Assembly (NCBI GenBank): GCA_964597545.1
Contig: CAZQXN010000001.1
Location: 69,655 to 133,654, forward strand
Source of the DNA: an uncultured Planctomycetia bacterium
GTDB taxonomy: Bacteria > Omnitrophota > Gorgyraeia > 1-14-0-20-64-10
Length of the DNA: 64,000 nucleotides
Reading direction: 5' to 3'
A program made the position numbers and the translations under genes. Numbering within the stretch: position 1 is the first letter of the stretch; each line of letters begins with the position of its first letter. The notes beneath the pieces were generated by a model. That model worked only from the letters and a program-made list of their open reading frames with translations. It did no database searches and was not told where the DNA came from. Positions 1,769 to 29,158 of the stretch are shown here, one piece after another.

Positions 1769-2014
1769 TTAGTGGATCCGCCCCTGCAGGATGAAGACCG
1801 TCACCAACGCGTAGATCGTCAAGGCCTCAATGAAGGCGCAGCCGATCACCATGCCGGTCTGAATCTTAGGTGCTGCCTCGGGTTGACGTCCCATCGCTTC
1901 CATCGCCGCAGAAACTGCCCGACCCAGCGCCGTCGCGCAGGCGATGGCAGCCAGGGCCAGCCCGAAGGGGAGCGCAAACCCCAGAACCACATTGGCTTCA
2001 AGTGCTGCTAACAC
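1769..2014 (-). CDS. atpE: F0F1 ATP synthase subunit c (proteolipid)
   Basis: The 81-aa ORF is a two-helix hairpin with GxGxGxG-like packing and the conserved acidic residue in helix 2 (...AFIEALTIYALV...). The revcomp RBS GGAGG lies at 2021-2030. Confidence 0.85.
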   Translation of the reverse strand: MLAALEANVVLGFALPFGLALAAIACATALGRAVSAAMEAMGRQPEAAPKIQTGMVIGCAFIEALTIYALVTVFILQGRIH

Positions 2015-2037
2015 GGTGTAGCCTCCTCTCTGAAATC

Positions 2038-2085
2038 GGTACCGGGTACACTTGCTAACAGCTGTGGATAACTGTACCCGGTACC
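2038..2085. repeat. Dispersed palindromic element, copy A (GGTACCGGGTACA - 22-nt loop - TGTACCCGGTACC), in the atpB-atpE intergenic region
   Basis: A perfect 13-bp inverted repeat. Related copies occur at 15818-15848 and 21826-21866, and their loop sequences are related (ctgtggataac versus ctgttgataag). Confidence 0.65.
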
Positions 2086-2091
2086 GGGGTT

Positions 2092-2841
2092 TTATTCCGC
2101 GGGGTGCGGAAGCATCATGCTGATAAAGACCGCGCTTAGGGTGGCAAAGACCACTGCCTGTGCGGTCGCCAAGATGAGTCCCAGCCCCATGGCCATCAAC
2201 TGCAGCAGAATCCCCATAGGACCAAAACCCACCGCCACCGCCAAGAAGGCATCCTCGGCGGTGATGTTAAAACCAAGCCGCATGGAAAGTGAGAGTGGCT
2301 TGACCAGCTCGCCAAACAAGTGGATAAAACCGATCAAGAGCCCAATCAAAACCATGAAGGCCCCCTTGGGCTCTCCCATCATGTGCGAGAGGTACCCCTT
2401 AAACCCAAAGGAACGAATCCCGGTGTATTGAATGTAAACAAAGACGCACAGGGCCAGTCCCGCGGTAGTGTTGAGATCCGCGGTGGGGGATTTCATGCCG
2501 GGGACAAGCCCCATCAAGTTCATGGCCCAGATGTAAAGAAAGAGGGTGCCGATGAAGGGCGCATAGTGGCGGGCGTGAGAACCCATGATCCCTTCAATAA
2601 AGCGGTTGAGCCCCTCGACCAAGATCTCAACAAAGTTCTGCCAGCCCTTTGGGATAAGCTCAGGCTTGCGGCTGACCAGACGGGCCAGAACACACAGGGC
2701 AAGAGCGGTGATGGCAGCAAAGATCAGATTCTCGTAGGTATGCAAAAAGCGGCCCAGGACAGTATCGGCGCCCACGGTCTCAGTTAGCCAGCTGACCCAA
2801 TTGGCGATGTGGGGGATGCCGCCGTGGCCTGTCTCAGACAT
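2092..2841 (-). CDS. atpB: F0F1 ATP synthase subunit a
   Basis: The 249-aa polytopic membrane protein carries a conserved Arg-containing C-terminal helix region (...SLSMRLGFNITAEDAFLAVAVGFG...). Its operon position is upstream of atpE. Confidence 0.8.
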   Translation of the reverse strand: MSETGHGGIPHIANWVSWLTETVGADTVLGRFLHTYENLIFAAITALALCVLARLVSRKPELIPKGWQNFVEILVEGLNRFIEGIMGSHARHYAPFIGTLFLYIWAMNLMGLVPGMKSPTADLNTTAGLALCVFVYIQYTGIRSFGFKGYLSHMMGEPKGAFMVLIGLLIGFIHLFGELVKPLSLSMRLGFNITAEDAFLAVAVGFGPMGILLQLMAMGLGLILATAQAVVFATLSAVFISMMLPHPAE

Positions 2842-5787: not shown

Positions 5788-5925
5788 AGGACCTAAGTAT
5801 CACCACTTCTGTCGGACCCGTCAATACCTATCCATTCTGGATTCCCCCTGCTCCGTACGTTAATATACATAAAGTTGGTTATTTTCCTTGTTTTTTACCC
5901 CCTTTATAGGCCATACTTTCCTTAT

Positions 5926-8900
5926 ATGGTACATCATACGATGACACGCCCATTGGCCTTCCTGCTGGCCCTCCTGATTGGTTTGCCTGCCCCTGCTCTC
6001 CTGGGCAGCCAGGCACTGGCTGCGGAGCATGGTGCGGCTTCCTCTAGCCGCAGCCATCATCTGCGCCCTTCCATTGAAGAGCGGGTGGAGGCTGATCTCG
6101 CCTCCGGCCTGGAGGAGGGGGCTGAGGATCTCGCAACCATTCTTGAGGTGCCGACAATCCAGCAGCTGAGCGCAATCCCCCTCGAAAGAATCGGAGAGGC
6201 CTATCTGCTGGATCCCAGACCGACAACATCCGATTTGAAAGATCAATTTGAGTCTGCCCAGCGGGAGCTCTGGTCGGTTGGATTCAAGCACCGGGAGGCC
6301 CCTCATCTTGTCGTCGGCGTGGGCAGAGAGATTAAAGCGTCGGGGATAACCCATTTCTTGGGCAAGCTGTATTCACGGACAAGACCGACCTCTGTGAGGA
6401 TGCTTCACAAACATCCCGTTCGCTCAGCAATCCCGTCGCACAAGGATTTCAGCGGACTCAAGGAGTGGCGTAAGCGATATGGAAAAAGCGTTCGGCGGCA
6501 GCGCAATTGGATCAACGGCGCAGACAACGGCATCCAGCGCTTTGTGGAGTACGGACACCGGCGCTTGTGGCGCATATTCTCATCCAAGAAGCTACAGGCG
6601 CGGATCTGGAGGGGCGGTCCCAAGAAACCCGCCGAAGCATTCTTCATCCCGGGCACCGATCGATGGCATGTCAGCGACATCAGAAATCACTCTTTGCCGG
6701 GAACCGACCAGGAAGGACACTCCTACTTCTTCAGCCTGGTGGATACGCCGGGCGTTCAGCGGGTTGAATTCAACGACCATCAAGGACGCTGGGCAAGCTG
6801 CAGTGCGAGCGACACCTGGGAAGAGCTACTTGAGTCACAGGGTTACACCAGGCCAGCCTACTCCGGCCTGGAGGAGGAGTGGGTGGAGCGTATCCGTACA
6901 GCAACCCAGCAGTGGCAAGCCAAGGGTTGGAAGCTTTATGACCCTGAGGAGCTCTCCTCAGCTTTTGCCAAGATTGCCGCAAAGCTCGGGTCGGGTTTGG
7001 AGAAAACCCAAGCCTTGGACGCGCAGGATACCAGGCGTTTCATCTGGGAGCGCCGTCAAGAATTCATGGTGGCCTTCTCGCATCTGGCCGAGGCGCTGCA
7101 TCTGCCCCCTGAAAACAATCCGCTAAGCGTCATCGCACTCACCCCTGCACGCGGCAAGTCCCCACCAAAACAAGCTGTGTTGGATCTACCCTATGGTGAA
7201 GGGGTGCTCAGGGCGACGATCCATTTCCAGAACCCTTCCCAAACTCCCAGAACCAAATTCCAGTTTCAGATTCGGGATGCAGCGGGCACCGCCCGGCGTC
7301 TGGGTGAGATGCGCATGGGAGCTGACAAGGAACGGCGCGACACCCTTCCGCTGCTTCACATTGACGTGGTAGATCCGTTGCGCCCAAGAACACCTCACGG
7401 TGAAAAGAGGAAATGGATCTGGCACCTGGGTATCGATTGGGCCTTCACGCAGCAAGATGGCATTCAAGAGAAGCTCATCGCCTACAAGACATTCCAGGAT
7501 AATCTCGGCCAACGGGTGAGACAACTGAGCAGGCGCCCCACAAGGGACACTACCGCTGCTTCCGGCCAAGAAGAGCCAATCCTCTCCCTGCCTGGTGCAG
7601 TACAAGTACCGCTTGCAGATCTTCGCCTGGCTGAAAGAATTGAGGCACACACAGGGGTTGCCGGGATTGATCCTGTCCGGACAGCGCTGAAGCAATTGCC
7701 GAATTCGCTCGTTCTGGCGGTGGTCGGCTCTGCCTTCTTGAGTCCAGGCGAGGCGATTGCCGATCTGGACCTGGCAGTCTATGACACCGCAGAGGATGGC
7801 GCAGGGGTGTGGGAATTACTGGACAGGCTTGAAGATTGCTTGGGCCCATTGGGTGAGGTTACGCGCAGCCCGGCAGCCGGAGATGAGAAGGCGTGGACAG
7901 ACCCCTATACCCTGAGTGTCGAGGATGTGCGAGGCGGAGGAGAGAGTTTCCAGGTGGATATCTTTGCCCTTCCCATGAGTTTATTGCGCACCAACCCGAT
8001 TGTGGATGGCCTAGACGCCTTATTCTACGTCGGGGGATTCAATCCCCTCTTCCCGGTCTATGGGGTTCAAAGCAGTCAAGCGGCAGAGCAATTCGTTGAG
8101 ATTGCTGCAGCAATTCCAGAGACCACCCTGGTTGGCAATCTCACACAATGGAAGCAAGCGCTCCTGGAGGATGCGCAGATGCGTTTGAGGTTCGGCGAGT
8201 CCGAAGCAGAGGCCATCCAAAAAGTGCGCCGACGAGCCCGTACCGTTTTGTATGCCCTAGACAGCAATGAGGTCCCGGCACCAGATGCACTTCCAGGGAA
8301 CCAAAAAGAGCTTGGCGAATTGCTAAGAACCCTGCAGACCCGGCAGGGTGATTTCGTAGAGCGGGTGCGGGCAATCCGTCTCGCCTCCGGCCTGGAGGAG
8401 GGAATAGAGTTGGCTACTGTGCCGATCCCGCGAAGCGCCGATGAGACCGACGCGTACGTTAACCGGCTCCATAGAACACGAGTGGTTATCGGAGATGCCC
8501 TCCGCATTCCCTATGACCCTTCCTTTCCGGAAACGGTGGCAGAACGGCACCACCTTTCGGTGATCCGCCATCTGAACGACAATGCCTTCCTCCATTTCCT
8601 TGACAGGACCTCGATCGCCAATCCTCAGGCGCAATTTACCTTCTTCCTCACCCAAGGGGTGGTTGACGGCGCTCTGCGCTGGTTTCTGAATGTTCAATAC
8701 CAAGATAACAATCCAGAGGCGTGGGAACATCCCATCGAGAGCGCGGTGACGAAGTTAAGCGGTGGAAGCCAAAGGGATGGCGGCGGAGTGGGATTGTGGA
8801 CTGCTTACCAAGCAGTAGCGCAAATTCCTGATGCGGCCCTTATCGTTGAGGCTCGGGATGTAGACGGCCATCGGAAACGGCTGAAGTTTGTAAAGGCCTT

Positions 8901-11900
8901 AAGCAGCCCTGCTTCCTTGGAGATTCGTAATCCTGATGGGGGAACAGAAATCTTGGTCCGGCTTCCAATCCTCCCCTTGGAGATAAACCTTGGGGAGGCA
9001 GCAGAACAAACTCGAGAACTGTTGGCCGGCAGATTTGGGCAGGGGCTCTCCAGGGAAATGACCGAATCTACCATCACCCAAATCTTGCGGCACAGCCTTC
9101 TGCTGCGCGCTGTGCAGATAGGCTCAGGGGCTAGAGCGGTCCTGATTCAAGGAGAAGCTGCGCAAGAGGTGACCGGACAAGCGGTGGCAAGGGCTCTCGA
9201 CGCACTTCCAGGGTCTTCTGATGGCAATCGGTTTGTTATGCACATTGGCAGGCACCCTTCAGAAGGTCTGGCTGTATACATTGCTCCGCTGCGAGGTGAA
9301 TATCATGCCCTCAGTTCAGGAGAGGCTGTTGAGATCGCGGATCTGCTTCGACAGAGAGAGCCGACGGTAGCTTCCATTCGCTTTCCTGGGCAAGGGTCTC
9401 ATCTGGATGTTCCGCTCGGAGCGCTCAGCCGAGAGTTGATTGCGGCGAGTGTCGATCGGATTCTCCAGGGCGGCAATGGCGTCATCCAGGTGGTGCCCTT
9501 TGAGCTTGGCGAAACAGATAGGCTCGCCATTGAAGTCTTATCAACCTCCGGCCAGGAGGAGAAGCGCCCCGCCCTAGGGCAGCTTACCAAACAGCTGCGT
9601 CAAATTCACAGACCCGGTTCCACGTGGACCCCTTCACAGATTGTTGATGCAGTCCGAGCCGCCTCTGAGACAGAGGATTTTGAGCTAGAGTGGCTTGCTC
9701 CCGGACAGATCAACTCCCCTGCGCAAAGAAAGACCGCCTGGGGGAAGATCCTTCACGCCGCTTACAGTGCGGTCAACAGGGGAGGGCTGGATCCGCTCAC
9801 CTGGCGGAAGGTTCTGGAGCAAGCAGGGCTTGATCCGAATCAGGTCTATGGGCGCAAACGAAGATCGCGAAAAGGGGATGGGATAGCATCCCCGGTTGCC
9901 GTCCACCTCCATCCTCCTTTCAAGGATGGCAAGCCGAACCTGGAGGCGTTAGGGGAACCAAACCACACAGGTGTGCGACTGCCCCGCCGTCCTTGGTGGA
10001 AGGAACACGCTCCTGCTCGCGCTCTGTTCATGAACCTTGAAACAGCTGGGAGTTCAACTGGGCAAGCGATCGTTAATGCTTACGGCCCCTCCTACTCACT
10101 CCCGCTGCCCTACAACGAATCCAACCCGGACCGCGTGGTGGTGTTGGCAGATGTCCCTGAGCCGGATCAGATCCGCGTACTGGCCATCTACCACGCTCAA
10201 ACCTTAAAGCAACTCTACCCCACCGCCAATCAGATATGGATCTATCCTCGCTTCCACCTGCAAGGAGGAAAGCTCCGAGGAGATTCTTTCTTCTTAAGGG
10301 CTACAGAGAAGATCAAAGATACCTCCTGGGACAATCTGGCCGCACGGGGCCCGCAAGTCGCCCTGGCGCATAGCCGCATTGGCGTCGACTCTGGCAGTTC
10401 ATACGTCCACTGCAGGGGTATCCCGCGCCTCATTCCGTACCGTAAAGGGGTAACGCATTCAAATCCTATGCTGGTCATTGCTGATACGCGCGCAGAGGCT
10501 GAAGCACCACCCATTGCCATCTATAACAACCAGGGGGATCAAGTTGCTCCTCACTGGGAAGATGCGTCGGTTCTGGAATTTGATGCGGTCGAGCTGGCAT
10601 CGCAGCTGCTGCGCCAACTGGCAGGCGCCTCCAATCTACTGCAAGGATCCGGCAGCGAACGAACTGTGCAACATCTCGACGTCAGCCAGCTGCTCGGCGG
10701 AACACCGGCTGCCATTGCCTTCCGTGATGACAGCGAGGACGGCTTAAGGCGGCGCCTGGAAGTGGCGCTGGCGGTAGCACTTGACCCCTGGAAACCTGCT
10801 CTTTATGATCCGGCTCGTGGGCAATATCTGCCGGCCTGGGAGGCGGGCGAACCCTTAAGGGAAGCGGGAATTGCCTCTATTCAAATTACGGTTCCACCTC
10901 GACCGGAACAGCCGGAAACCGCCTGGTTGGTTGTTCCGAGCAACGGTACGGCGGGGCTGCCGGCTTACGAGGCTGATGCGTTTAGAGGGTTTCATCCGAA
11001 TCAAGCGCAAAAGCTTCCCGCCGACACAACCCACGTCATCACGCGGCCCCTCACCAGGGAAGCCCTCTCCAGAGAGGTTGTGATTCCGTTGCACTACAAC
11101 GAGCGCGCAACCAGCGTTGTGGCGCTGCTTTCCCGGGAAGCTGGGGTCAGTACGGGAGAACGCATTCCAGCAGGAAAGAATACTCGGCTCTTCTTTGAGC
11201 CGACACTTCAATTGGATCACTGGGTAGGCGAAGAGGATAACGGCAGGCCGGCTCTGGTGTTGTGGTCGCATCCCTGGCCTGGTGATACCGTTCCAGACAG
11301 CTTCACCATACCCACCATTGATCTACATCCCGATCAAACCTTTTCACTTACCCTAAGACAGCTGTTTCATGCAGCACTGCTCGGCCACACAGCAGCAGCG
11401 CACCTGAATGTCTCAGCCCTCTGGACCTTCTTAGACAGCGAAAATCAGCCGCTGTTGGCCGCTGCTATCGGCCCGGAGCGCACTGCCGGCCAGGAGGAGG
11501 CTGATACCCTCGCAGGGGTCAGCACCCGCAGTGTGGTGTCGACTTACTTTGATCCGCCATTTTACGAGCACGGAACGCTCAAGGAAGTCACAGCAGATTC
11601 AGTTTGGGAATTCACAAATTTGCCGCCTGCCTTCTGGGAAACCGCCCGAGAGAGAGCCCAGAAGCATGTTGTACTCCGCGGCGTGCGCTCGATCGACACC
11701 AATGGGCAAGCGCACTTTGCAGCCACAACAGCACAAAGGAAAACCGGCCGCTATCCCACCGCAGTGCCTTACGGCGCAGATGTTGCATTTACGGTGGCGT
11801 TTAACATGCAGCATCCCCTTCTGGGGATTCCCGAGAAAGCTTTTCACAACGGAATCCAAGTGTACCCGGCAGCAAACCATGTCGAGATGTATCTGCATTT

Positions 11901-14900
11901 CGAGGTACGCCATGGCAAGCTGGTGCCTGAAGCCTCCTTCCTGTTTAAAGCAACTGAGCGATCGATTAAGGGGGTTTGGGATCTCCCTGAAGTTTTGGAG
12001 GCAAGCTCAGTGGCGTTGGCAAACGTTTCAACACTTACGAGGCCAATCCGAAACAAGCCCAATGTATCGTTTCGGTACCGCACAAAGCGTTTCACCATTT
12101 CGGTGCCGAATGGGGAATCCGCTCCACAGCGTGTTCTGATCCTCGGCAATCCCAAGAGACCGGATGGAGATCCCCCGGAAATCGTCCACGATATGAAAAC
12201 AGGCCGAGAGGTTTGGCCCACCTGGGGGGCAGTCCCCGCGCAAACCCTGGCCGACGCCTTAGAGCGATACCACGATGAGGAGGTGGCCAGTCAGTTTCGG
12301 CGCCCTTACGACCCCCGCTACTTCAACGAGTTGCTCCAGCAGGCGCAGCGAAGTTTTCCGCAGCCTACTGAGGGGGAACGTATTGTGTTCGATCTGCTAC
12401 AAGCGGCCGCCCGAGCTGCTCGGGCGGCTCAAGGGAACAATCCTCAGCACATCGAGGACTTTTTCAGCACCAGCGCCGACCGAATCCAACAAAGGGAGCC
12501 AATCAGAGTCAACGGCGGCCTGGAGGAGACTGGAAAATTTGATTTGATACGGGCAGAGGAACCGATTCCGCCCTTCCGGCTGCCGGAGTTGCCTGATGGG
12601 TTCCGGGTAAGCGAAGGGACCTTTCCTCTGGATCCCTCAACAGCCATGTTCAGCACCTTGATTCGAGAGCACCCGGAGCTGTTTCAAGGCATGGTCCTGG
12701 ACCTTGGAACCGGAAGCGGAGCTTTGGCCATTCAACTGGCCCGCCAGGGCGCCACTGTGGTGGGTATAGACAAATTAAGAGGAGCCATCGACGATGCGCG
12801 CCACAACCTCTCCCTAGAATCACCAGAGGTGCAGGCCCGGGTCACCTTCGGAGTCAGCGATCTATACGAGAATCTTCCTCAGATCACCGGGGAAGACAGT
12901 CCTCAATTCGACGTGGTGATTTACAACAACGGTATTCGCTTAGAGAAGGTCGCCCAAATCATCCCTCGAGATGCGATGTTGAAGGCCGGGGAGGCAGGGG
13001 AAGAGGTGGCCCGGGCCGTCAGCGGGTTGGACCAGGTGCTCACTCCAAATGGCAGAAGCTTTTTCCTGGGGGGTTCGGATCGCAATCTCGTCAACCTTTT
13101 CGGGTGGGGCCATTTTGAGGAGGCAAAACCAGAGGGGTGGAGGGTGCACCCCACAACATACAAGAAAAGCATGGCGCGCATCGTAAGGCAGGTGTTGATC
13201 TTCCGGGTGGCACCCCCGGGCGTTCCGGAATCTGCCGAGGTGGTGGCCGAGCCGAGCCTTCTCAATGTCCTCTTCCTTCCGGAGCGAAGGTTTGAAGTCC
13301 CGGCCGGCCAGGAGGAGAGACGGGAGATTGAGCTGGATACGATACCGCTTCAAGAAGCCGGCTCGAGAGAGACTGATGCGCATACACCCCTCTTCGACCC
13401 CCTGAATAGACCGTTCCAAGACCCTTTAAGTCCCTTTCATCCAATCCGCATTGACATGGGACCGATCCTCACGAATCTAGCAGACAACGCCAGAGAGCAT
13501 TTCCTGGAGCGCTTCCCGGATGTTGCGAACAAGACGGCTCAACTCAAACTTTCTGTTGCTGAACGAGATGCTGGGGATCGGTCCCTCATCATCCGCTACC
13601 AGGACAACAATCCGCATCCCTGGGAAATTCCGATTGACGAGGCGGTCCGAGGCTGGGGTGAGAGCAGAAAAGAACTTTCATGGGGAATAGGAGAGGGCTT
13701 GACAGGATCTTATAGAAGGACAATGAAGCTGGGTGGTCGCTTCACCGTGGAGGGGATGGACCCGAACGAAGGGCGCACCCGTCTGATCTACGCCGAGCCT
13801 GACCAAGAGCCTGCACCGGAAGATCGTCGCTACCAGAGCGATGGGACAGAGATCGTAGCTGAGCTTCCGATTCAAGCTCCAGATCAGTCCCTTGAAGCGC
13901 TTGCCGAATCCTTCCGTCAGAGCCTGGCCTCCGGCCAGGAGGGGCGTTCTGACGAATGGCGCCTCAGGGATAAAAAGGTTTCTGGGGGTCCGGCGATTCG
14001 GTGGCGGCCTCTCACCAATACGCCTGAGATGGTAAGTCGGTCGGAGCTAGAGCACGCCCAGCGGCGCGCTTACGACGAACATATTTTTGACCACCTCCCA
14101 AAGGATCTGGTACCCGCCCTTTCTGGTGGCATCTCTGGATTGCTGGCTCAGTTTGAGCAAGAAAACCGAGCAAGCGGCAAACCCTTCGCTTGGTGGGATG
14201 GGGCAGGCGGCATCGGCACGGCACTCCATCAGGCACGCGGCAGCGGCCATTATCCACACTTGGTACCTGTCCTTGTCGATCTTGTCAACTGGAAAGAAGA
14301 AGAGCTACCCCAGAAAGCAAGAGGGTGGCTCCGTCAGATGGCGCCGATTTGGGGGGTGGATTACCAAGATTTCTGGTCTAAGAAAGGTGTTGGGTTTATT
14401 TCGGGGGATCTTTCGACGCTTTATATTCCGCCAGAAGAAGCATCTTCCATCCGCCTTTTTACAATCATCGGATCGCTGGGTTTCTTTGATAATCCTTTGG
14501 GTGCCCTGCTAAACGTCTATAATCAACTCCCGGATGACGCCATCCTCCTAGCACCCTTATTCATCTCGATGGAAGACCCTCGGCGCCCTGAGCCAGAGGA
14601 GGCCGTCGTTGACTTCTATCGGGACGTGGTGGTTCCTGATCTTAAAGCGCATGGTGTTCAAGTCGATTTCAAGAAGACCAATCAGATGGAAGAGGCGGCC
14701 GTTGCTCAGGGACTCGGCGCGGGCATTCCGCAATTCCAGGCCGGATTCGTGTTCGTTAAGACGCCTGGATCAATCAAGCTGCTCCTTACGCCTAAAGTAC
14801 GCACCTTCCCGCAGAAGACAACCCGTGACGTTCTAGCGAAGGTCGTTCATTATGAGGGGGATCTTGAGAACCCCTTCGCTTACCATCCTCCTACCTCCGG

Positions 14901-15360
14901 CCTGGAGGAGGCGGTTGTGTGGGAATCAACGGTGTTTCGGGGGCAATTCCCGCAACTGGCAGACCAGATTCCAGCAAACGCCACTCATCTTTTGGGGGTG
15001 CCCCTCGACGGTGCGGTCACGCTGTATCGGCCTGAGACCTTGGCCGGAGGGCTGGAGGAACGAATTCGAGTAGAAGCAGAGCATTTCCCTGGTGTCGTCA
15101 TCCGGGCACAGCCGATTCCGCCGGCCGAGCGCAGCGTTCAGCGCCCTGCAGTTTTTGTGCTGGATACCCTCTTGGAGCTTAAGCTCCCCTACGAGCCCAC
15201 TCCTGCTGTGCACCACCAACTGGGCCAAGCGCTCCCGCCGCTGTTGAGGCTTATTGCCATGGCTTTAGCAGGTCGGACCGATGTCGTTGCTGCCTGGGTT
15301 GTCGGCCAGGTGGTTGAGGAAGATGGCCGGCAATACTTTGTCCTGGCGGTTCAACTGTAA
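5926..15360 (+). CDS. Giant protein of about 3,145 aa with a predicted signal peptide; NTase-like motif, two GHKL-like ATPase-like segments, two SAM-MTase-like segments and an internally duplicated module; function unknown
   Basis: One stop-free frame runs from 5875 to 15360 (9.5 kb). The first in-frame ATGs are 5926 (MVHHTMTRPLAFLLALLIGLPAPALLGSQALAAE) and 5941; the ORF-track start at 5875 is a TTG. The N-terminus looks like a signal peptide. The motifs I read are: VVGSAFLSPGEAIADLDLAVYD (hG[GS]x9-13DhD, about 7710-7790); LNDNAFLHF...YQDNNPEAWE...GGVGLW (about 8560-8900) and LADNAREHF...YQDNNPHPWE...GGRFTVE (about 13470-13800), which are GHKL N-box/G-box-like; VLDLGTGSGALAI...DVVIYN (about 12690-13000) and WWDGAGGIGTAL...VDLVNW (about 14190-14300), which are MTase motif I/II-like; and the duplication FFLRATEKIKDTSWDNL versus FLFKATERSIKGVWDLP (about 10290 and 11940). 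Confidence 0.85.
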   Translation: MVHHTMTRPLAFLLALLIGLPAPALLGSQALAAEHGAASSSRSHHLRPSIEERVEADLASGLEEGAEDLATILEVPTIQQLSAIPLERIGEAYLLDPRPTTSDLKDQFESAQRELWSVGFKHREAPHLVVGVGREIKASGITHFLGKLYSRTRPTSVRMLHKHPVRSAIPSHKDFSGLKEWRKRYGKSVRRQRNWINGADNGIQRFVEYGHRRLWRIFSSKKLQARIWRGGPKKPAEAFFIPGTDRWHVSDIRNHSLPGTDQEGHSYFFSLVDTPGVQRVEFNDHQGRWASCSASDTWEELLESQGYTRPAYSGLEEEWVERIRTATQQWQAKGWKLYDPEELSSAFAKIAAKLGSGLEKTQALDAQDTRRFIWERRQEFMVAFSHLAEALHLPPENNPLSVIALTPARGKSPPKQAVLDLPYGEGVLRATIHFQNPSQTPRTKFQFQIRDAAGTARRLGEMRMGADKERRDTLPLLHIDVVDPLRPRTPHGEKRKWIWHLGIDWAFTQQDGIQEKLIAYKTFQDNLGQRVRQLSRRPTRDTTAASGQEEPILSLPGAVQVPLADLRLAERIEAHTGVAGIDPVRTALKQLPNSLVLAVVGSAFLSPGEAIADLDLAVYDTAEDGAGVWELLDRLEDCLGPLGEVTRSPAAGDEKAWTDPYTLSVEDVRGGGESFQVDIFALPMSLLRTNPIVDGLDALFYVGGFNPLFPVYGVQSSQAAEQFVEIAAAIPETTLVGNLTQWKQALLEDAQMRLRFGESEAEAIQKVRRRARTVLYALDSNEVPAPDALPGNQKELGELLRTLQTRQGDFVERVRAIRLASGLEEGIELATVPIPRSADETDAYVNRLHRTRVVIGDALRIPYDPSFPETVAERHHLSVIRHLNDNAFLHFLDRTSIANPQAQFTFFLTQGVVDGALRWFLNVQYQDNNPEAWEHPIESAVTKLSGGSQRDGGGVGLWTAYQAVAQIPDAALIVEARDVDGHRKRLKFVKALSSPASLEIRNPDGGTEILVRLPILPLEINLGEAAEQTRELLAGRFGQGLSREMTESTITQILRHSLLLRAVQIGSGARAVLIQGEAAQEVTGQAVARALDALPGSSDGNRFVMHIGRHPSEGLAVYIAPLRGEYHALSSGEAVEIADLLRQREPTVASIRFPGQGSHLDVPLGALSRELIAASVDRILQGGNGVIQVVPFELGETDRLAIEVLSTSGQEEKRPALGQLTKQLRQIHRPGSTWTPSQIVDAVRAASETEDFELEWLAPGQINSPAQRKTAWGKILHAAYSAVNRGGLDPLTWRKVLEQAGLDPNQVYGRKRRSRKGDGIASPVAVHLHPPFKDGKPNLEALGEPNHTGVRLPRRPWWKEHAPARALFMNLETAGSSTGQAIVNAYGPSYSLPLPYNESNPDRVVVLADVPEPDQIRVLAIYHAQTLKQLYPTANQIWIYPRFHLQGGKLRGDSFFLRATEKIKDTSWDNLAARGPQVALAHSRIGVDSGSSYVHCRGIPRLIPYRKGVTHSNPMLVIADTRAEAEAPPIAIYNNQGDQVAPHWEDASVLEFDAVELASQLLRQLAGASNLLQGSGSERTVQHLDVSQLLGGTPAAIAFRDDSEDGLRRRLEVALAVALDPWKPALYDPARGQYLPAWEAGEPLREAGIASIQITVPPRPEQPETAWLVVPSNGTAGLPAYEADAFRGFHPNQAQKLPADTTHVITRPLTREALSREVVIPLHYNERATSVVALLSREAGVSTGERIPAGKNTRLFFEPTLQLDHWVGEEDNGRPALVLWSHPWPGDTVPDSFTIPTIDLHPDQTFSLTLRQLFHAALLGHTAAAHLNVSALWTFLDSENQPLLAAAIGPERTAGQEEADTLAGVSTRSVVSTYFDPPFYEHGTLKEVTADSVWEFTNLPPAFWETARERAQKHVVLRGVRSIDTNGQAHFAATTAQRKTGRYPTAVPYGADVAFTVAFNMQHPLLGIPEKAFHNGIQVYPAANHVEMYLHFEVRHGKLVPEASFLFKATERSIKGVWDLPEVLEASSVALANVSTLTRPIRNKPNVSFRYRTKRFTISVPNGESAPQRVLILGNPKRPDGDPPEIVHDMKTGREVWPTWGAVPAQTLADALERYHDEEVASQFRRPYDPRYFNELLQQAQRSFPQPTEGERIVFDLLQAAARAARAAQGNNPQHIEDFFSTSADRIQQREPIRVNGGLEETGKFDLIRAEEPIPPFRLPELPDGFRVSEGTFPLDPSTAMFSTLIREHPELFQGMVLDLGTGSGALAIQLARQGATVVGIDKLRGAIDDARHNLSLESPEVQARVTFGVSDLYENLPQITGEDSPQFDVVIYNNGIRLEKVAQIIPRDAMLKAGEAGEEVARAVSGLDQVLTPNGRSFFLGGSDRNLVNLFGWGHFEEAKPEGWRVHPTTYKKSMARIVRQVLIFRVAPPGVPESAEVVAEPSLLNVLFLPERRFEVPAGQEERREIELDTIPLQEAGSRETDAHTPLFDPLNRPFQDPLSPFHPIRIDMGPILTNLADNAREHFLERFPDVANKTAQLKLSVAERDAGDRSLIIRYQDNNPHPWEIPIDEAVRGWGESRKELSWGIGEGLTGSYRRTMKLGGRFTVEGMDPNEGRTRLIYAEPDQEPAPEDRRYQSDGTEIVAELPIQAPDQSLEALAESFRQSLASGQEGRSDEWRLRDKKVSGGPAIRWRPLTNTPEMVSRSELEHAQRRAYDEHIFDHLPKDLVPALSGGISGLLAQFEQENRASGKPFAWWDGAGGIGTALHQARGSGHYPHLVPVLVDLVNWKEEELPQKARGWLRQMAPIWGVDYQDFWSKKGVGFISGDLSTLYIPPEEASSIRLFTIIGSLGFFDNPLGALLNVYNQLPDDAILLAPLFISMEDPRRPEPEEAVVDFYRDVVVPDLKAHGVQVDFKKTNQMEEAAVAQGLGAGIPQFQAGFVFVKTPGSIKLLLTPKVRTFPQKTTRDVLAKVVHYEGDLENPFAYHPPTSGLEEAVVWESTVFRGQFPQLADQIPANATHLLGVPLDGAVTLYRPETLAGGLEERIRVEAEHFPGVVIRAQPIPPAERSVQRPAVFVLDTLLELKLPYEPTPAVHHQLGQALPPLLRLIAMALAGRTDVVAAWVVGQVVEEDGRQYFVLAVQL

Positions 15361-15407: not shown

Positions 15408-16445
15408 TTGTTCTCAGAAATGAGCTCATCTAACCCAAAAGGGGTCAGACCCCCTGAAGGGGGTCAGACCCCTGCGTCCCACCGCTGTGGATCGGTCGTG
15501 ATCCTGGGCCGCCCCAATGTGGGTAAGTCCACCCTTTTGAACCGCCTCCTGGGCGAGAAGATCGCGATTGTCTCGCATAAGCCGGAGACCACCCGGGAGC
15601 AACTCTTAGGCATCCTGACCCTGGCCGATGCTCAAATCCTTTTCTATGACACCCCTGGGATTTATCGAGCCCCCTCCACCCTCTTGGGCAAGCACCAGGT
15701 GCAGGCAGCTCGGGATGCCCTGGAGGCCGCGGATGTCATGCTGCTCATGACCGAAGCGCAGGCCGGGTTGACCGATGAGGATAAGCAGATTGTGGGGCTG
15801 CTGAAAACCAGAACAACGGTACCGGGTACAGCAAGTGTACCCGGTACCGAAACCGAGGGGTTGCCGGTGTTGCTGGCAATCAACAAGGCTGACCGGGTCA
15901 AGAAGTCGCTCATTCTGCCGCAGATCGAGGAAGCAAATCATCTTTATCCATTCCGGGAAATTGTGCCGATATCCGCCAGGGACGGAGACAACACCGAGCC
16001 CCTCTTAAAGGCGCTGGTCCAAGCATTGCCTGTTGGACCAGCCCTGTATCCTGCGGATGAGCTGACCGATAAGCCCGCACGTACTCTGGTCCAGGAGCTC
16101 ATCCGCGAGAAGACCTTGCTCTTTACCCACGAAGAGGTGCCTTATGCGGTGGCGGTCCTCGTTGAGGAATGGCGAGAGGGAGAAAAGCCAAAAGGGGTCA
16201 GACCCCTTAAGAAGAAGGGGTCAGACCCCGTCTACATTCGGGCAACGATCTATGTGGAGCGGGATTCGCAGAAGGGGATCTTGATCGGCAAGGGGGGAGG
16301 ACTCCTAAAGAAGATCGGGGAGGCAGCCCGCAAAGAGATTGAGGCGCTGTTGAAAGGGCCAATCTTTCTTGATCTTTGGATCAAGGTTGCCAAGAACTGG
16401 CGCAAGGACCCCCAGATGCTAAGGAGGCTGGGATATGGTGCATGA
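15408..16445 (+). CDS. era: GTPase Era, carrying three in-frame palindromic-repeat insertions
   Basis: The G1 motif ([16 protein letters not shown]), DTPG, NKAD and a C-terminal KH domain (VAVLVEEW...[37 protein letters not shown]...LDLWIKV) are all present. Relative to E. coli Era there are extra segments at the N-terminus, before the G4 motif and in the KH domain, and these coincide with the repeat elements. Confidence 0.85.
15441..15472 (+). repeat. Tandem pair of GGGGTCAGACCCC palindromes inside the era 5' coding region
   Basis: ccaaaaGGGGTCAGACCCCctgaaGGGGGTCAGACCCC, which encodes [14 protein letters not shown] in frame. Confidence 0.7.
15818..15848 (+). repeat. Dispersed palindromic element, copy B (GGTACCGGGTACA gcaag TGTACCCGGTACC), inserted in frame in era
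   Basis: A perfect 13-bp inverted repeat with a 5-nt loop. It encodes [12 protein letters not shown] in the loop between the G3 and G4 motifs of Era (E. coli has ...LREGKAPVILAVNK... here). Confidence 0.75.
16198..16239 (+). repeat. Second tandem pair of GGGGTCAGACCCC palindromes, inside the era KH domain
   Basis: ccaaaaGGGGTCAGACCCCttaagaagaaGGGGTCAGACCCC, which encodes [14 protein letters not shown] in frame. The 19-nt lead-in ccaaaaggggtcagacccc is identical to the one at 15435-15453. Confidence 0.75.
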
Positions 16446-18102: not shown

Positions 18103-18413
18103 GAGCTATTGATTCCGGGCGGAGAATGTGGCATGGTTGAAGTGAAGGCCGATAAGGGCAAACTCGTCGAAAGGCGGGGACGCAAAACCACAGACCTAAC
18201 CCGACTCCGGCGCCCCGATGTCAACGGCCTGGCCCACAAATCTTAAAGGGCAGGGGCATCCGATGGGCGAGGGGGTCGACAAGGTGGCTGGGTTGCCGAT
18301 CACCGGGCCAAAAAATAAAGGTCCCTACTCCCGGCTTCGCGGTCGGGCACACCGGGACGGGCCGTTCAGGTGATTGTACGGTAGCCTTTATCGGCTTGGC
18401 TTCATACAACTTA

Positions 18414-20564: not shown

Positions 20565-20590
20565 AGTCGGTACCCAAAGGAGAGCGTTGA

Positions 20591-21823
20591 ATGGCTATTT
20601 ATAAAGCAGGTGTGATCGGTGCCGGAACGATGGGTGCCGGAATCGCTCAGGTGTTGACCTTTAACGGCATCCCCGTGGTCTTAAAAGAGGTCAATGATGA
20701 GTTTCTCCAGCGCGGCATGGGGATGATCCGCAAGGTGTACGAGGGACGGGTCGCCAAGAAGCGGATGACGTCGGAGGAGATGGAAGAGAAGCTTAAGCTC
20801 GTCACCCCAACCACCAGCTACGACCCCTTGAAGGAAGCGGATCTGGTGATCGAGGCGGTGCCGGAGCTGATCAAGCTTAAGATCGAGATCTTCAAGGCGC
20901 TCGATGAGATCTGCTCTGAGGGGACCATCTTGGCCACCAATACATCGGCCCTGTCGGTCTCCGGGATTGGGGCGGTGACCAAGCGCCCGGAGCGCGTAGT
21001 CGGTATGCACTTCTTTTTCCCTGCCCACATCATGAAGCTGGTGGAGGTGATCCCGGGGCTTAACACCAGCGACGAAACCGTCGAAGAGGTGACGGGGCTG
21101 GCAGAGAATCTGCGAAAATTCCCGGTCAAGGTCAAGGAGTGTCCGGGCTTTCTGGTCAACCGGCTGCTCATGCCGTACTTGAACGAAGCGGTGATGGCAC
21201 TCGAGGAGGGGGCTGCCGGTGTCGAGGAGATCGACAAGGGCATGAAGGATCTGGGCTGGCCGATGGGCCCCTTCACCCTGATTGATGCGTTGGGGCTGGA
21301 CATCTGTGCGGAGGCCGGTAAGGTCCTCTGGCAGGGTTACGGCGACCGGATGCACCCGGCTCGACTGTGGATGCGGATGCTGGAGCTCAAGCGCTTGGGC
21401 CGAAAATCCGGCAAGGGCTTCTACGATTACGGAGAGCCCGGTTCCAAGGCAGCCGGTCAGGTGGATGCAGCACTTCAAGCAGAGATTGAGAAGCTCAGAA
21501 AAGAAACCGGCAAACCCAAGACTGCCTTTACCCCGGAGCGGCTGATGACCCTCATCATCAATGAAGCGGTGCTCGCTCTGCAGGAGGAGGTCTCCTCGGC
21601 AAGTGAGATTGAGATCGCAGTGCTGGCGGGGCTGGGGTACCCACCCTCCAAGGGGGGGCTGCTGCATGCCGCCGACCAAATAGGAATCGATACGCTCACC
21701 GATACCCTGGACCGGCTCGCCCAGGAGTTGGGCTTTCGGTTTCATCCGGCCTATCGCTTGAGGACCATGCGCAATGCCGGGTACCTGGGGGCCAAAACCA
21801 AACAAGGATTCTTTAGTTATTAA
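20591..21823 (+). CDS. 3-hydroxyacyl-CoA dehydrogenase (NAD-binding)
   Basis: The N-terminus has a Rossmann GxGxxG motif (IYKAGVIGAGTMGAGIAQV), followed by 3HCDH N and C domains. The RBS AAGGAG lies 9 nt upstream of the ATG. Confidence 0.85.
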   Translation: MAIYKAGVIGAGTMGAGIAQVLTFNGIPVVLKEVNDEFLQRGMGMIRKVYEGRVAKKRMTSEEMEEKLKLVTPTTSYDPLKEADLVIEAVPELIKLKIEIFKALDEICSEGTILATNTSALSVSGIGAVTKRPERVVGMHFFFPAHIMKLVEVIPGLNTSDETVEEVTGLAENLRKFPVKVKECPGFLVNRLLMPYLNEAVMALEEGAAGVEEIDKGMKDLGWPMGPFTLIDALGLDICAEAGKVLWQGYGDRMHPARLWMRMLELKRLGRKSGKGFYDYGEPGSKAAGQVDAALQAEIEKLRKETGKPKTAFTPERLMTLIINEAVLALQEEVSSASEIEIAVLAGLGYPPSKGGLLHAADQIGIDTLTDTLDRLAQELGFRFHPAYRLRTMRNAGYLGAKTKQGFFSY

Positions 21824-21825
21824 AC

Positions 21826-21866
21826 CCGGTACCGGGTACGCCTGTTGATAAGTGTACCCGGTACCG
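21826..21866. repeat. Dispersed palindromic element, copy C (CCGGTACCGGGTAC - loop - GTACCCGGTACC), between the dehydrogenase and the hydratase
   Basis: It begins 3 nt after the TAA at 21821-21823. The stem is 12-13 bp, and the loop gcctgttgataagt is related to the loop of copy A. Confidence 0.65.
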
Positions 21867-21881: not shown

Positions 21882-22667
21882 ATGGCTGACTACCAATATT
21901 TAGGTGTTTCAACCGAGGAGAAGATCTGTACGCTGACCATCAGTAACCCGCCGGCGAACCTGCTCTCCCGAGCTGTGTTGACTGAGATCAACGGCTTCTT
22001 GGAGGGGCTGGAGAAGGATCCGGGTGAGGTCAAGGTGCTCTTGATCACCGCTGCCGGCACCTTTTTTATCGTGGGGGCCGACATCACTGAAATCTCGAAC
22101 ATCAAAGGGGCAGCCGAAGGCGAGGAGGCAGCCTCCCTGGGTCAGAAGGTGATCAACAGGCTTGAGAAGCTTCCAATCCCGACGATTGCCGTCATCAACG
22201 GCCACTGCTTGGGTGGGGGCAATGAGCTGGTCATGGCCTGCTCGATCCGAATCGCCAATGAGCGGGCCCGATTCGGCCAGCCGGAAATCAGCCTAGGGAT
22301 CTTGCCCGGCTTTGGCGGCACGCAGCGGCTGACCCGGCTTGTGGGCAAATCCCGCGCTCTGGAGCTGATGCTGACCGGCGACATGATCAACGGCAAGGCG
22401 GCCGAGGCGATGGGGTTGGTCAATAAGGCAGTTCCTGAGTCGGAGCTGATGAAGCAGGCCAAGGGGCTGGCCAAGAAGATCGCCGAGAAGAGCCGGCCTG
22501 CATTGGAACGAATCCTGCGGCTTGCTCGAGAAGGGGTGACCCTACCCTTGGAGGAAGCCCTTAAAATCGAGGCCAAGCTCTTCGGTGAGCTGTGCGCGAC
22601 CGAGGACATGAAAGAGGGGCTTTCTGCATTCCTGCAGAAGCGCCGACCCAAATTCCAGGACAAATGA
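21882..22667 (+). CDS. Enoyl-CoA hydratase/isomerase (crotonase family)
   Basis: The crotonase fold is evident (...AVINGHCLGGGNELVMACSIRIANERARFGQPEISLGILPGFGGTQRL...). I placed the start at MADYQYLG, which has a GGAGG RBS 7 nt upstream; the longer ORF beginning at 21852 would start inside the palindromic element. Confidence 0.85.
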   Translation: MADYQYLGVSTEEKICTLTISNPPANLLSRAVLTEINGFLEGLEKDPGEVKVLLITAAGTFFIVGADITEISNIKGAAEGEEAASLGQKVINRLEKLPIPTIAVINGHCLGGGNELVMACSIRIANERARFGQPEISLGILPGFGGTQRLTRLVGKSRALELMLTGDMINGKAAEAMGLVNKAVPESELMKQAKGLAKKIAEKSRPALERILRLAREGVTLPLEEALKIEAKLFGELCATEDMKEGLSAFLQKRRPKFQDK

Positions 22668-28577: not shown

Positions 28578-28921
28578 TGGCAGGGTGCATTTTTTGCAAG
28601 ATCGCCTCCAAGGAGATTCCGGCAAAGATCGCCTACGAGGACGACGGCGTGGTGGCCTTTCATGACATCAACCCCCAGGCGCCGGTCCACATCCAGATCA
28701 TTCCCAAAGAACACATTGAACGGGTGTCGAATTTGACAGAGAAAACGGTGCCGGTGATGGATAAGTTGATCTTGGTTGCCAATCAGTTGGCCCGGCAGAT
28801 GCAGGTGGCCGAACCCGGATACCGGATGGTCATCAACTGCAATCCAGGGGCCGGCCAATCGGTCTACCACTTGCATCTGCATCTTTTGGGCGGGCGACCC
28901 ATGCAGTGGCCGCCAGGGTAA
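28574..28921 (+). CDS. HIT family protein (histidine triad nucleotide-binding)
   Basis: An N-terminal CIFCKI zinc-binding motif and an HxHxHxx histidine triad (HLHLHLLGG). Confidence 0.85.
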   Translation: MMAGCIFCKIASKEIPAKIAYEDDGVVAFHDINPQAPVHIQIIPKEHIERVSNLTEKTVPVMDKLILVANQLARQMQVAEPGYRMVINCNPGAGQSVYHLHLHLLGGRPMQWPPG

Positions 28922-29158
28922 AGCGATGAGGCAAGGAATGTTCAAGCAAATCAAGGTAATGCACATTTCGGTTTCGCAGTCGTGCGCGGCCAAGCAAGCC
29001 GCCTCATCGCTTTTCAGGGGGGAAACGCCCTCTGGTGGTTTCCCCCCTGGGATTCCCCCTTCCCAGGCCCGCTTTCAGCGGGAAGGTCTTGCAGGGGGCG
29101 ATTTCCCATCTCCCCCTGCATGCCCCTCTTCCGAAGGAAGGAGGCAACGCGGATAACC

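What the first reader, a model, noticed from the sequence alone, without database searches (positions are those of the whole stretch)
2038..2085. REP/MITE-like dispersed palindrome family GGTACCGGGTAC(A)...(T)GTACCCGGTACC in three contexts
Three copies with a perfect stem of 12-13 bp lie in the atpB-atpE spacer (2038-2085), in frame in era (15818-15848), and 3 nt after the stop of the 3-hydroxyacyl-CoA dehydrogenase gene (21826-21866). Copies A and C have related long loops (ctgtggataac / ctgttgataag) and copy B has a 5-nt loop, which suggests decay or deletion variants of one element. Each half-site contains KpnI-like GGTACC. Placement between atpB and atpE, where translational-coupling hairpins are common, and directly after a stop codon suggests the element is co-opted as a transcript-stabilising, terminator or attenuator structure.
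Basis: seen in the sequence. Interest (0 to 1): 0.55.

Follow-up and report, generated by a model that had tools for sequence, protein, structure and literature searches.

The report
Dispersed GGTACC hairpin repeats, REP-like
The three palindromes are real copies of a short hairpin-forming repeat that occurs in many bacterial phyla, flanks REP-type (RAYT-like) transposase genes in Firmicutes, and in this organism's relatives also sits in frame inside essential genes.

Summary
Three hairpins with perfect 13-14 bp stems (CGGTACCGGGTAC / GTACCCGGTACCG) lie at 2037-2086, 15817-15849 and 21827-21866. This is far above chance, and the first is identical in two independent assemblies.

The window comes from a Candidatus Omnitrophota genome. 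The same 24 specified bases occur in at least 78 loci of public genomes from several phyla.

In four of five Firmicutes-type loci examined, the same 11-bp box (GTACC-N-GGTAC) flanks a gene for a RAYT-like Y1 transposase. That is the hallmark of REP/REPIN elements. No such gene was found in the window or in any Omnitrophota locus I held, so the link is inferred for this genome.

In Omnitrophota-like genomes the repeat also sits in frame in Era, LeuRS, UvrC, AtpG, RlmN, Fmt, Lnt and GltB, mostly read as VPGT...VPGT. Its arms have no stop codon in any frame.

A syntenic relative (Era 86% identical) carries an A/T-centred variant in the same Era loop and the same 3HCDH-ECH spacer.

Its terminator/attenuator reading is not: the sense strand has no U-tract, and positions are not conserved in more distant relatives.

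Verdict: a new variant of a known kind, of moderate interest.

The parts
2037..2086 (.). Copy A. Hairpin element with arms CGGTACCGGGTAC(A) / (T)GTACCCGGTACCG and a 22-24 nt spacer. It lies in the 77-nt atpB-atpE spacer (genes on the minus strand). It starts 5 nt after the atpB stop (2092-2094) and ends 22 nt before the atpE GTG (2012-2014). The Shine-Dalgarno GAGGAGG lies 8 nt downstream of the stem.
15817..15849 (.). Copy B. 14-bp perfect stem with a 5-nt loop, in frame in era. It encodes [11 protein letters not shown] in the loop just upstream of the G4 NKxD motif.
21827..21866 (.). Copy C. 13-bp perfect stem with a 14-nt spacer. It starts 3 nt after the TAA of the 3-hydroxyacyl-CoA dehydrogenase gene and ends 15 nt before the enoyl-CoA hydratase ATG (21882). 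The Shine-Dalgarno AGGAGGAG starts 5 nt after the stem.
20569..20574 (.). Solo GGTACC 16 nt upstream of the dehydrogenase ATG. At this exact site the syntenic relative L081 carries a full A/T-centred element (a 46-nt gap in the window). It is a possible remnant or seed of an element.
15408..16445 (+). era (GTPase Era), host gene of copy B. It is intact, with the GTPase and KH domains.
2092..2841 (-). atpB (ATP synthase subunit a), the gene upstream of copy A.
1769..2014 (-). atpE (ATP synthase subunit c), the gene downstream of copy A.
20591..21823 (+). 3-hydroxyacyl-CoA dehydrogenase gene, upstream of copy C.
21882..22667 (+). Enoyl-CoA hydratase gene, downstream of copy C. The ATG at 21882 matches the start called in L081.

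Best explanation
The three palindromes belong to a family of short non-autonomous repeats. Each is built from two inverted copies of an 11-13 bp box, (C)GGTACC-S-GGTAC, separated by a variable spacer of 0-25 nt. Each box is itself a near-palindrome.

The family behaves like REP/REPIN elements: hairpin-forming DNA that a RAYT-type (HUH, Y1) transposase encoded elsewhere in the genome recognises and moves as single-stranded DNA.

Shown here:
- The family exists and is dispersed in many genomes and phyla.
- In Firmicutes-type genomes the same boxes lie within about 10-110 nt of RAYT-like genes, on both sides where both flanks were held.
- In the Omnitrophota clade of this window the elements sit directly after stop codons. 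They also sit in frame inside housekeeping genes, where the stop-free arms are read mostly as V-P-G-T.
- Two of the window's sites (the Era loop and the 3HCDH-ECH spacer) are also occupied in a syntenic relative whose Era protein is 86% identical, by a variant whose centre base is changed on both arms.

Inferred:
- The window's own genome has, or once had, a cognate RAYT.
- Mobilisation is by hairpin recognition and cleavage.
- Any effect of copies A and C on the atp and fatty-acid operon transcripts is a by-product of a stable hairpin of about -28 kcal/mol placed 3-5 nt after a stop codon and 5-8 nt before the next Shine-Dalgarno. It is not the reason the elements are there.
For: - Family size. 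From one search's titles I count Halanaerobium/Halanaerobiales 23 loci, Omnitrophota 20, 'Planctomycetia'-labelled MAGs 11, Gemmatimonadota 6, other Bacillota 6, Actinomycetota 5, Acidobacteriota 3, one further Planctomycetota MAG and 3 unclassified. My estimate of the chance expectation is about 0.07 in 596 Gb.
- RAYT link, L043. Bacillota locus L043 has a 198-aa Y1_Tnp gene (Pfam E 1.2e-14). Boxes lie 83-108 nt upstream and 7-95 nt downstream.
- RAYT link, L017. Halobacillus locus L017 has a homologue 54% identical, 46 nt from its element.
- RAYT link, Halanaerobium. Its RayT (P0125, 64% identical, also next to uvrA) is flanked on both sides by GGTACCAGGTAC-N14-GTACCTGGTAC.
- RAYT link, L173. 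The homologue P0201 (locus L173) is flanked by clusters of GTRCCWGGYAC boxes.
- Family assignment of the proteins. Their best NCBIfam match is REP_Tyr_transpos (57-71 bits), against at most 24 bits for the IS200 model.
- In-frame copies. Pfam confirms the host genes LeuRS, Lnt, UvrC, RlmN, AtpG, Fmt, GltB, a DEAD/DSHCT helicase and PGK.
- Lineage-specific presence and absence. There are no elements in 681 kb of more distant relatives.
- Mobility of whole elements, loop included. The loop GAT(T/C)CTCGCAGCTGCGAG occurs at two non-orthologous sites in two assemblies (L012 and the era of L085).
- The W-type element with the spacer ..GAAAAAYCG occurs in the era of L081 and in the GltB of L014.
Against: - No Y1 transposase gene was found in the 64-kb window or in any Omnitrophota locus held (HMM search).
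- The 240 closest database homologues that carry a name are almost all Firmicutes. The cognate enzyme in this lineage is therefore unproven.
- The classical 5' GT(A/G)G head of REPs (PMC2817692) is absent. The arms carry GTAC.
- The RAYT homologues score below NCBI's curated cut-off for REP_Tyr_transpos (80 bits).
- One Halanaerobium saccharolyticum RayT (P0159) is not flanked by the boxes.
- REPs are by definition extragenic, whereas many copies here are genic.
- No target-site duplication or defined insertion target could be derived.
- Some hits in Actinomycetota, Gemmatimonadota and Acidobacteriota look like tandem heptamer (GGTACCS)n tracts and may be a different phenomenon.
Confidence: 0.68

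Rival explanations
1. The hairpins are selected cis-regulatory RNA structures: mRNA 3'-end stabilisers, attenuators or terminators, or translational-coupling devices between cistrons. Their dispersal would be secondary.
For: - Copies A and C start 5 and 3 nt after a stop codon and end 8 and 5 nt before a Shine-Dalgarno sequence.
- In AT-rich genomes most copies lie 1-25 nt after a stop codon and/or 17-29 nt before an ATG with a Shine-Dalgarno.
- The hairpins are very stable.
- From my own knowledge: E. coli REPs are known to protect upstream mRNA, and those within about 15 nt of a stop codon reduce translation of the upstream gene.
Against: - There is no T-run after the stem on the sense strand for A or C.
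- Positions are not conserved beyond close relatives.
- The identical sequence is found in frame in a dozen housekeeping genes.
- No Rfam family matches.
Confidence: 0.15
2. This is a RAYT-independent selfish or self-generating palindrome, comparable to Rickettsia palindromic elements. It would either be spread by an unknown mechanism or arise repeatedly by slippage and hairpin template-switching from GGTACC(S) heptamer tracts. The link to RAYT genes in Firmicutes would then be irrelevant to Omnitrophota.
For: - No RAYT was found in Omnitrophota loci.
- The arms are 1.7-3 tandem copies of a GGTACCS heptamer. Some genomes hold long heptamer tracts.
- In-frame genic insertion is the defining habit of Rickettsia palindromic elements (my own knowledge).
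- Solo GGTACC sites and half elements occur at orthologous sites.
Against: - The arms (24 bases) and the 14-nt box spacing of copy C are identical to those of the RAYT-flanking repeats of L043.
- Whole elements, loops included, recur at non-orthologous sites. That fits transposition better than de novo growth.
Confidence: 0.15
3. The boxes are operator sites for a dimeric DNA-binding protein that recognises GTACC-N-GGTAC, that is, a regulon rather than a mobile repeat.
For: - Each box is an 11-13 bp near-palindrome.
- In L043 two paralogous upstream regions each carry four boxes with regular 25-nt spacing.
Against: - There are copies inside coding sequences of unrelated essential genes.
- Many copies per genome sit next to unrelated genes.
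- Presence varies at orthologous sites.
Confidence: 0.04
4. The copies are chance matches or assembly artefacts.
For: None found.
Against: - 16 matches against 2.0 expected.
- Copy A and its whole spacer are identical in two independent assemblies.
- There are at least 78 loci in other genomes.
Confidence: 0.01

Closest known systems
REP / REPIN elements with their RAYT (REP-associated tyrosine transposase), as in E. coli, Pseudomonas and Stenotrophomonas (PMC2817692; PMC5581495)
   Same: - Short hairpin-forming palindromes of 24-50 nt, present in many dispersed copies.
- Mostly placed between genes, close to stop codons.
- Two inverted sub-units form a longer hairpin, as in a REPIN.
- Copies flank a Y1_Tnp gene whose best NCBIfam match is REP_Tyr_transpos.
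- Compensatory changes keep the stem paired.
   Different: - There is no GT(A/G)G head. The arms carry GTAC.
- The boxes are shorter and are themselves palindromic.
- The same arm sequence is shared across phyla, whereas classical REPs are species-specific.
- Many copies are inside genes and are translated.
- The RAYT homologues are Firmicutes-type and fall below the curated family cut-off.
- No RAYT has yet been seen in the window's lineage.
Rickettsia palindromic elements (RPE) (my own knowledge: Ogata et al. 2000)
   Same: Palindromic repeats inserted in frame into housekeeping protein genes. They add a short peptide to a tolerated loop without destroying the gene.
   Different: RPEs are about 100-150 bp, are confined to Rickettsia, have an unrelated sequence and have no known transposase partner. 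The elements here are 24-50 nt and link to RAYT-like genes, at least in Firmicutes.
MITEs such as the Correia elements of Neisseria (my own knowledge)
   Same: Non-autonomous, with terminal inverted repeats. They are often found between genes and co-transcribed with them.
   Different: MITEs have defined target-site duplications and derive from IS elements with DDE transposases. No duplication was found here, and the element is little more than the two arms.
HIP1 highly iterated palindrome of cyanobacteria (PMC5861425)
   Same: A short palindrome over-represented in both genes and spacers. GGTACC itself occurs 25 times in the window against 6.4 expected from dinucleotide shuffles.
   Different: HIP1 is a solitary octamer at far higher density. 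Under a higher-order Markov model GGTACC is only 1.4-fold enriched here. The unit here is a composite hairpin.

Membership tests
REP/REPIN-RAYT system | Short (about 20-40 nt) palindromic sequence able to form a stable hairpin | tested here: met
   Stems of 13-14 perfect bp, dG -28 to -29 kcal/mol, z -4.6 to -7.7.
REP/REPIN-RAYT system | Many dispersed copies per genome, predominantly extragenic | tested here: inconclusive
   There are 3 copies in 64 kb here and 3 in 16.6 kb of L081. Several other genomes contribute many loci. The rest of this genome could not be read. One of the three copies here, and many in related MAGs, are intragenic.
REP/REPIN-RAYT system | A RAYT gene flanked by the same repeats | tested here: inconclusive
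   Met in 4 of 5 Firmicutes-type loci (L043, L017, L170-172, L173). No Y1_Tnp gene was found in the window or in the Omnitrophota loci held, and the full genome was not available.
REP/REPIN-RAYT system | Conserved GT(A/G)G tetranucleotide head at the 5' end of the repeat (PMC2817692) | tested here: not met
   The arms read CGGTACCGGGTAC. They carry GTAC, not GTAG or GTGG.
REP/REPIN-RAYT system | The associated protein belongs to the RAYT family rather than to IS200 TnpA | tested here: inconclusive
   The best NCBIfam hit is NF047646 REP_Tyr_transpos at 57-71 bits, below the curated cut-off of 80. The IS200 model scores at most 24 bits. Several database sources name the homologues RayT.
Rickettsia palindromic elements | In-frame insertion into protein-coding genes | tested here: met
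   Era in the window. LeuRS, Lnt, UvrC, RlmN, AtpG, Fmt, GltB, a helicase and PGK in related MAGs.
Rickettsia palindromic elements | Element size and lineage (about 100-150 bp, Rickettsia; figures from my own knowledge) | tested here: not met
   The elements are 24-50 nt and occur in Omnitrophota, Firmicutes and other phyla. Sequence similarity to RPE families was not compared.
MITE | Terminal inverted repeats plus a target-site duplication | tested here: inconclusive
   Inverted arms are present. In the Omnitrophota clade they extend to about AAAACAWC...GWTGTTTT. The filled/empty comparison with L081 and the flank listings show no consistent duplication.
Intrinsic (Rho-independent) terminator | GC-rich hairpin followed by a U-tract on the transcribed strand | tested here: not met
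   On the sense strand, the tail after A is ATTTCAGAGAGG and the tail after C is CTTGAAGGAGGAG. Only copy B matches the scan, and on the strand antisense to era.

The most novel reading that the evidence does not exclude
A REP-type hairpin family, driven by a RAYT-like enzyme, has crossed phylum boundaries with its arm sequence intact. In Omnitrophota it has become a generator of in-frame loop insertions (VPGT modules) in essential proteins.

Permissive sites such as the Era loop before the G4 motif are hit or overwritten again and again by different element variants, and by a second box family (GGGGWC-N-GWCCCC).

The perfect DnaA box in the loop of copy A could then be a docking site for the DnaA-domain-IV-like helix-turn-helix carried by the long RAYT homologues. 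That would link hairpin recognition to a second DNA-binding module.
Probability: 0.3. Interest if true: 0.75.

Novelty: new variant of a known kind. Interest (0 to 1): 0.58.

Why it matters
REP/RAYT systems have been characterised almost only in Proteobacteria. There the repeats are species-specific and extragenic.

Three things would follow if the reading is right:
- A REP family with the same arm sequence in Firmicutes, Omnitrophota and other phyla would show that these systems can move between phyla, or are held by a very conserved recognition code.
- It would give a second, independent example, after Rickettsia, of palindromic DNA colonising essential genes in frame, this time with a candidate enzyme.
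- It would offer a simple marker for annotating odd short inserts (VPGT..VPGT) in proteins of uncultivated lineages.

For annotation of this window, it means that copies A and C should not be called terminators or riboregulators without transcript evidence.

Tried and rejected
1. I clustered all ORFs within the 78 pattern loci to find a recurrent neighbour. Only ABC ATPases, PyrK and an aminotransferase recurred, and no transposase. The RAYT was found later by reading L043.
2. Viral contigs: no exact match.
3. Rfam: nothing at the copies.
4. The one metagenome scan, with the dehydrogenase protein as query, returned only relatives at 58% identity or less. There were no elements in 681 kb, so no empty-site comparisons came from it.
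5. A search for an Omnitrophota RAYT failed.
   - Two protein searches gave almost only Firmicutes.
   - A 120-sequence HMM found nothing in the window or the Omnitrophota loci.
   - A profile search of 1.84 billion representatives gave a huge family (7,092 clusters at E <= 1e-30).
   - The two GC-rich members I could look up (L174, L175) are flanked by other inverted repeats (GGGGTC.../GGGGAC...), not by GGTACC boxes.
6. tblastn of the RAYT against plasmids gave only distant homologues (41% identity or less). No plasmid vehicle was identified.
7. integron attC-site-like core sites, CRISPR repeats and restriction-site fill-in products were considered and dropped, because the sequences do not fit.
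8. The idea that all copies in a genome share one centre base (concerted evolution) was weakened. The assembly CAYJUA01 and locus L067 each hold both G/C-centred and A/T-centred elements.
9. No target-site duplication or insertion consensus could be defined.
10. The literal sequence does not occur in any relevant paper of the library.

Full report
**Observation**

The arms are CGGTACCGGGTAC / GTACCCGGTACCG.
- Copy A lies at 2037-2086.
- Copy B lies at 15817-15849 (14 bp, 5-nt loop).
- Copy C lies at 21827-21866.

The 12-mer with up to two mismatches occurs 16 times against 2.0 expected, and no shuffle reaches that number. Copy A with its whole spacer is identical in two independent assemblies of runs SRR8146442 and SRR8146443. 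The predicted hairpins have dG of -28 to -29 kcal/mol.

Read on consistent strands, the loop of A (AGTTATCCACAGCTGTTAGCAAGT) resembles the loop of C in its 5' part (ACTTATCAACAGGC). Its last seven bases equal the whole loop of B (AGCAAGT).

Each arm is itself a near-palindrome, GGTACC-S-GGTAC(C), and amounts to 1.7 copies of a heptamer GGTACCS.

**Context in the window**

- Copy A starts 5 nt after the atpB stop. It ends 22 nt before the atpE GTG, with GAGGAGG 8 nt after the stem.
- Copy C starts 3 nt after the dehydrogenase TAA. It ends 15 nt before the enoyl-CoA hydratase ATG at 21882, with AGGAGGAG 5 nt after the stem.
- Copy B is in frame in era and adds [11 protein letters not shown] shortly before the NKxD (G4) motif.

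Neither A nor C is followed by a T-run on the sense strand. Only B matches a terminator pattern, and on the strand antisense to era. No Rfam family covers the copies.

**Organism**

The Era protein's nearest named relatives are Candidatus Omnitrophota MAGs. Some MAGs labelled Planctomycetia belong to the same clade. For example, the Era of CAYJUA01 is 70% identical to the window's.

**The family is large and crosses phyla**

By my estimate, chance would give about 0.07 in 596 Gb.

By record title the loci divide as follows:
- 23 Halanaerobium/Halanaerobiales;
- 20 Omnitrophota;
- 11 'Planctomycetia' MAGs;
- 6 Gemmatimonadota;
- 6 other Bacillota;
- 5 Actinomycetota;
- 3 Acidobacteriota;
- 1 further Planctomycetota MAG;
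- 3 unclassified.

The spacers are lineage-specific:
- Halanaerobium (35% G+C) has TTGGAAAnnnTTTCCAA, giving a 41-nt perfect palindrome.
- One Omnitrophota MAG has AAGCTT.
- The Planctomycetia-labelled clade has CGGRACG. Its arms extend outwards to roughly AAAACAWC...GWTGTTTT.

Some hits in high-G+C Actinomycetota, Gemmatimonadota and Acidobacteriota look like tandem heptamer tracts and may be a separate thing.

The family is not universal. 681 kb around dehydrogenase relatives (58% identity or less) from metagenomes held none, and viral contigs held none.

**Link to a transposase**

Reading locus L043 (a Bacillota MAG) showed a 198-aa gene between uvrA and uvrC. It has the HUH motif (HVHL) and a RYIHLNP tyrosine motif. 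Pfam calls it Y1_Tnp (E 1.2e-14). GTACC-S-GGTAC box pairs with 14-nt spacing lie 83-108 nt upstream and 7-95 nt downstream of it.

Further loci give the same picture:
- A homologue 54% identical lies 46 nt from the element of Halobacillus locus L017.
- Database homologues are nearly all Firmicutes, and several sources name them 'REP element-mobilizing transposase RayT'.
- The Halanaerobium homologue P0125 (64% identical, again next to uvrA) is flanked on both sides by GGTACCAGGTAC-N14-GTACCTGGTAC.
- P0201 is flanked by clusters of GTRCCWGGYAC boxes.
- One H. saccharolyticum homologue, P0159, is not flanked.

So four of five loci of this clade show the defining REP-RAYT arrangement described by Nunvar et al. 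(PMC2817692).

The proteins match NCBIfam REP_Tyr_transpos best (57-71 bits), below its cut-off of 80. They score at most 24 bits against the IS200 transposase model.

Copy C of the window has the same 24 arm bases and the same 14-nt box spacing as the repeats that flank the L043 gene.

**The gap**

No Y1 transposase gene was found in the window or in any Omnitrophota locus I held. I could not reach the rest of the genome.

A profile search shows the family is huge, with 7,092 clusters at E <= 1e-30. It includes about 320-aa forms with a C-terminal DnaA-domain-IV-like helix-turn-helix.

The two G+C-rich members I could inspect are flanked by other inverted repeats that begin GGGGTC... or GGGGAC..., not by GGTACC boxes. 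The RAYT link is therefore shown for Firmicutes-type genomes and inferred for this one.

**In-frame copies**

The arms have no stop codon in any of the six frames (read directly from the sequence). In Omnitrophota-clade MAGs the element lies inside genes that Pfam confirms as real:
- LeuRS (editing domain);
- Lnt;
- UvrC;
- RlmN;
- AtpG;
- Fmt;
- GltB (several sites);
- a DEAD/DSHCT helicase;
- PGK.

Among the 31-nt elements in verified genes, seven are read as VPGT..VPGT, one as GTGY.., and none in the third frame. The binomial P is about 0.003 against equal use (my calculation). This indicates that selection filters the encoded peptide.

In AT-rich Firmicutes, all copies are intergenic. Typically they lie 1-25 nt after a stop codon and/or 17-29 nt before a start codon with a Shine-Dalgarno sequence.

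**History at orthologous sites**

L081 is a syntenic contig whose Era is 86% identical to the window's. It carries elements at three sites, all with A/T-centred arms (GGTACCAGGTACC / GGTACCTGGTACC):
- in the same Era loop;
- directly after the dehydrogenase stop, with one decayed arm and a partly alignable loop;
- upstream of the dehydrogenase start, where the window keeps only a solo GGTACC.

The centre base thus differs on both arms, which keeps the pairing. However, other assemblies hold both centre types, so this reflects sub-family turnover, not a genome-wide rule.

More distant syntenic relatives (L086, L087) have no element around the dehydrogenase gene. Omnitrophota locus L029 has one upstream of atpB but none between atpB and atpE.

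The Era loop is a hot spot. Six lineages carry six different inserts within a few codons of each other:
- the window's G/C-centred element;
- three different A/T-centred elements;
- two palindromes of another kind, GGGGACAGTCCCC x2 in L087 and AAGGGGACAGGCCCCTT in L086.

One of the A/T-centred loops (L085) recurs at a non-orthologous site in another assembly (L012). Whole elements therefore move.

In Halanaerobium, orthologous copies keep arms and inner stem 100% identical. Meanwhile the neighbouring spacer accumulates indels, and the loop apex flips orientation.

**Interpretation**

The best reading is a REP/REPIN-type non-autonomous hairpin element mobilised by a RAYT-like enzyme (confidence about 0.68).

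It departs from the classical definition in four ways:
- it has no GT(A/G)G head;
- its boxes are palindromic;
- its arm sequence is conserved across phyla;
- it occupies coding sequence frequently.

A passive effect of a -28 kcal/mol hairpin placed 3-5 nt after a stop codon is plausible from what is known of E. coli REPs (my own knowledge), but it remains untested.

I found no paper in the library that describes this sequence, or REPs in Omnitrophota. Bertels et al. (PMC5581495) report abundant flanking repeats only for their RAYT groups 2 and 3, with one widely distributed group also found in Clostridia.

I rate it a new variant of a known kind, with moderate interest.

Noticed in passing
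window 15441-15472 and 16194-16229: A second palindromic box family. There are four exact copies of GGGGTCAGACCCC (6 matches with up to 1 mismatch against 0.33 expected), and all four lie in era, as two close pairs. They are read in frame (KGVRP / GGQTP / KGSDP) in the N-terminal extension and in a variable region of Era. Relatives carry GGGGACAGTCCCC x2 (L087) in the Era loop. Two long RAYT-DnaA_C genes (L174, L175) are flanked by inverted repeats that begin GGGGTC... or GGGGAC....
   Followed up: partly
window 2063-2071 and 14250-14258: The only two perfect DnaA boxes (TTATCCACA) in the window both lie within 3 nt of a GGTAC(C) motif. One is in the loop of copy A. The other is 3 nt before the solo GGTACC at 14262. 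Copy C has TTATCAACA at the matching loop position. Long RAYT homologues carry a DnaA-domain-IV-like helix-turn-helix. This may be chance.
   Followed up: partly
window 5875-15360: Giant 3161-aa ORF. The peptide motif SGLEE / SGQEE and near variants occurs 11 times in one frame. At six of these places the DNA matches the small hairpin-like 16-mer CTCCGGCCWGGAGGAG with at most one mismatch, against 0.02 expected.
   Followed up: partly
window 18148-18301: Match to the c-di-GMP-I-GGC riboswitch aptamer (61.4 bits, gathering score 59). It lies about 200 nt upstream of the cNMP-binding/patatin gene at 18504-20564. The match spans 154 nt for an 80-position model, so it contains a long insertion.
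   Followed up: no
window 28795-29128: A cluster of four separate inverted repeats (pairs I3, I11, I12, I16) within about 330 nt. They were not examined.
   Followed up: no
L005 4010-4050 vs L010 4143-4183; L033 vs L060/L076: At orthologous Halanaerobium sites the element's stems are identical, but the loop apex is reverse-complemented (AAAAA vs TTTTT; TAA vs TTA). Short duplications or indels lie immediately next to the element.
   Followed up: partly
L043 4736-5332; L170 2501-3097: The RAYT-like gene sits directly downstream of uvrA both in a Bacillota MAG and in Halanaerobium. In L043 it lies between uvrA and uvrC, and box clusters occupy every intergenic spacer of the uvrB-uvrA-RAYT-uvrC stretch.
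   Followed up: partly
L067 6340-6430: A nested, multi-layer palindrome in an Omnitrophota MAG. Outer A/T-centred boxes enclose G/C-centred boxes, which in turn enclose a further inner palindrome. The whole forms a hairpin of about 90 nt.
   Followed up: no
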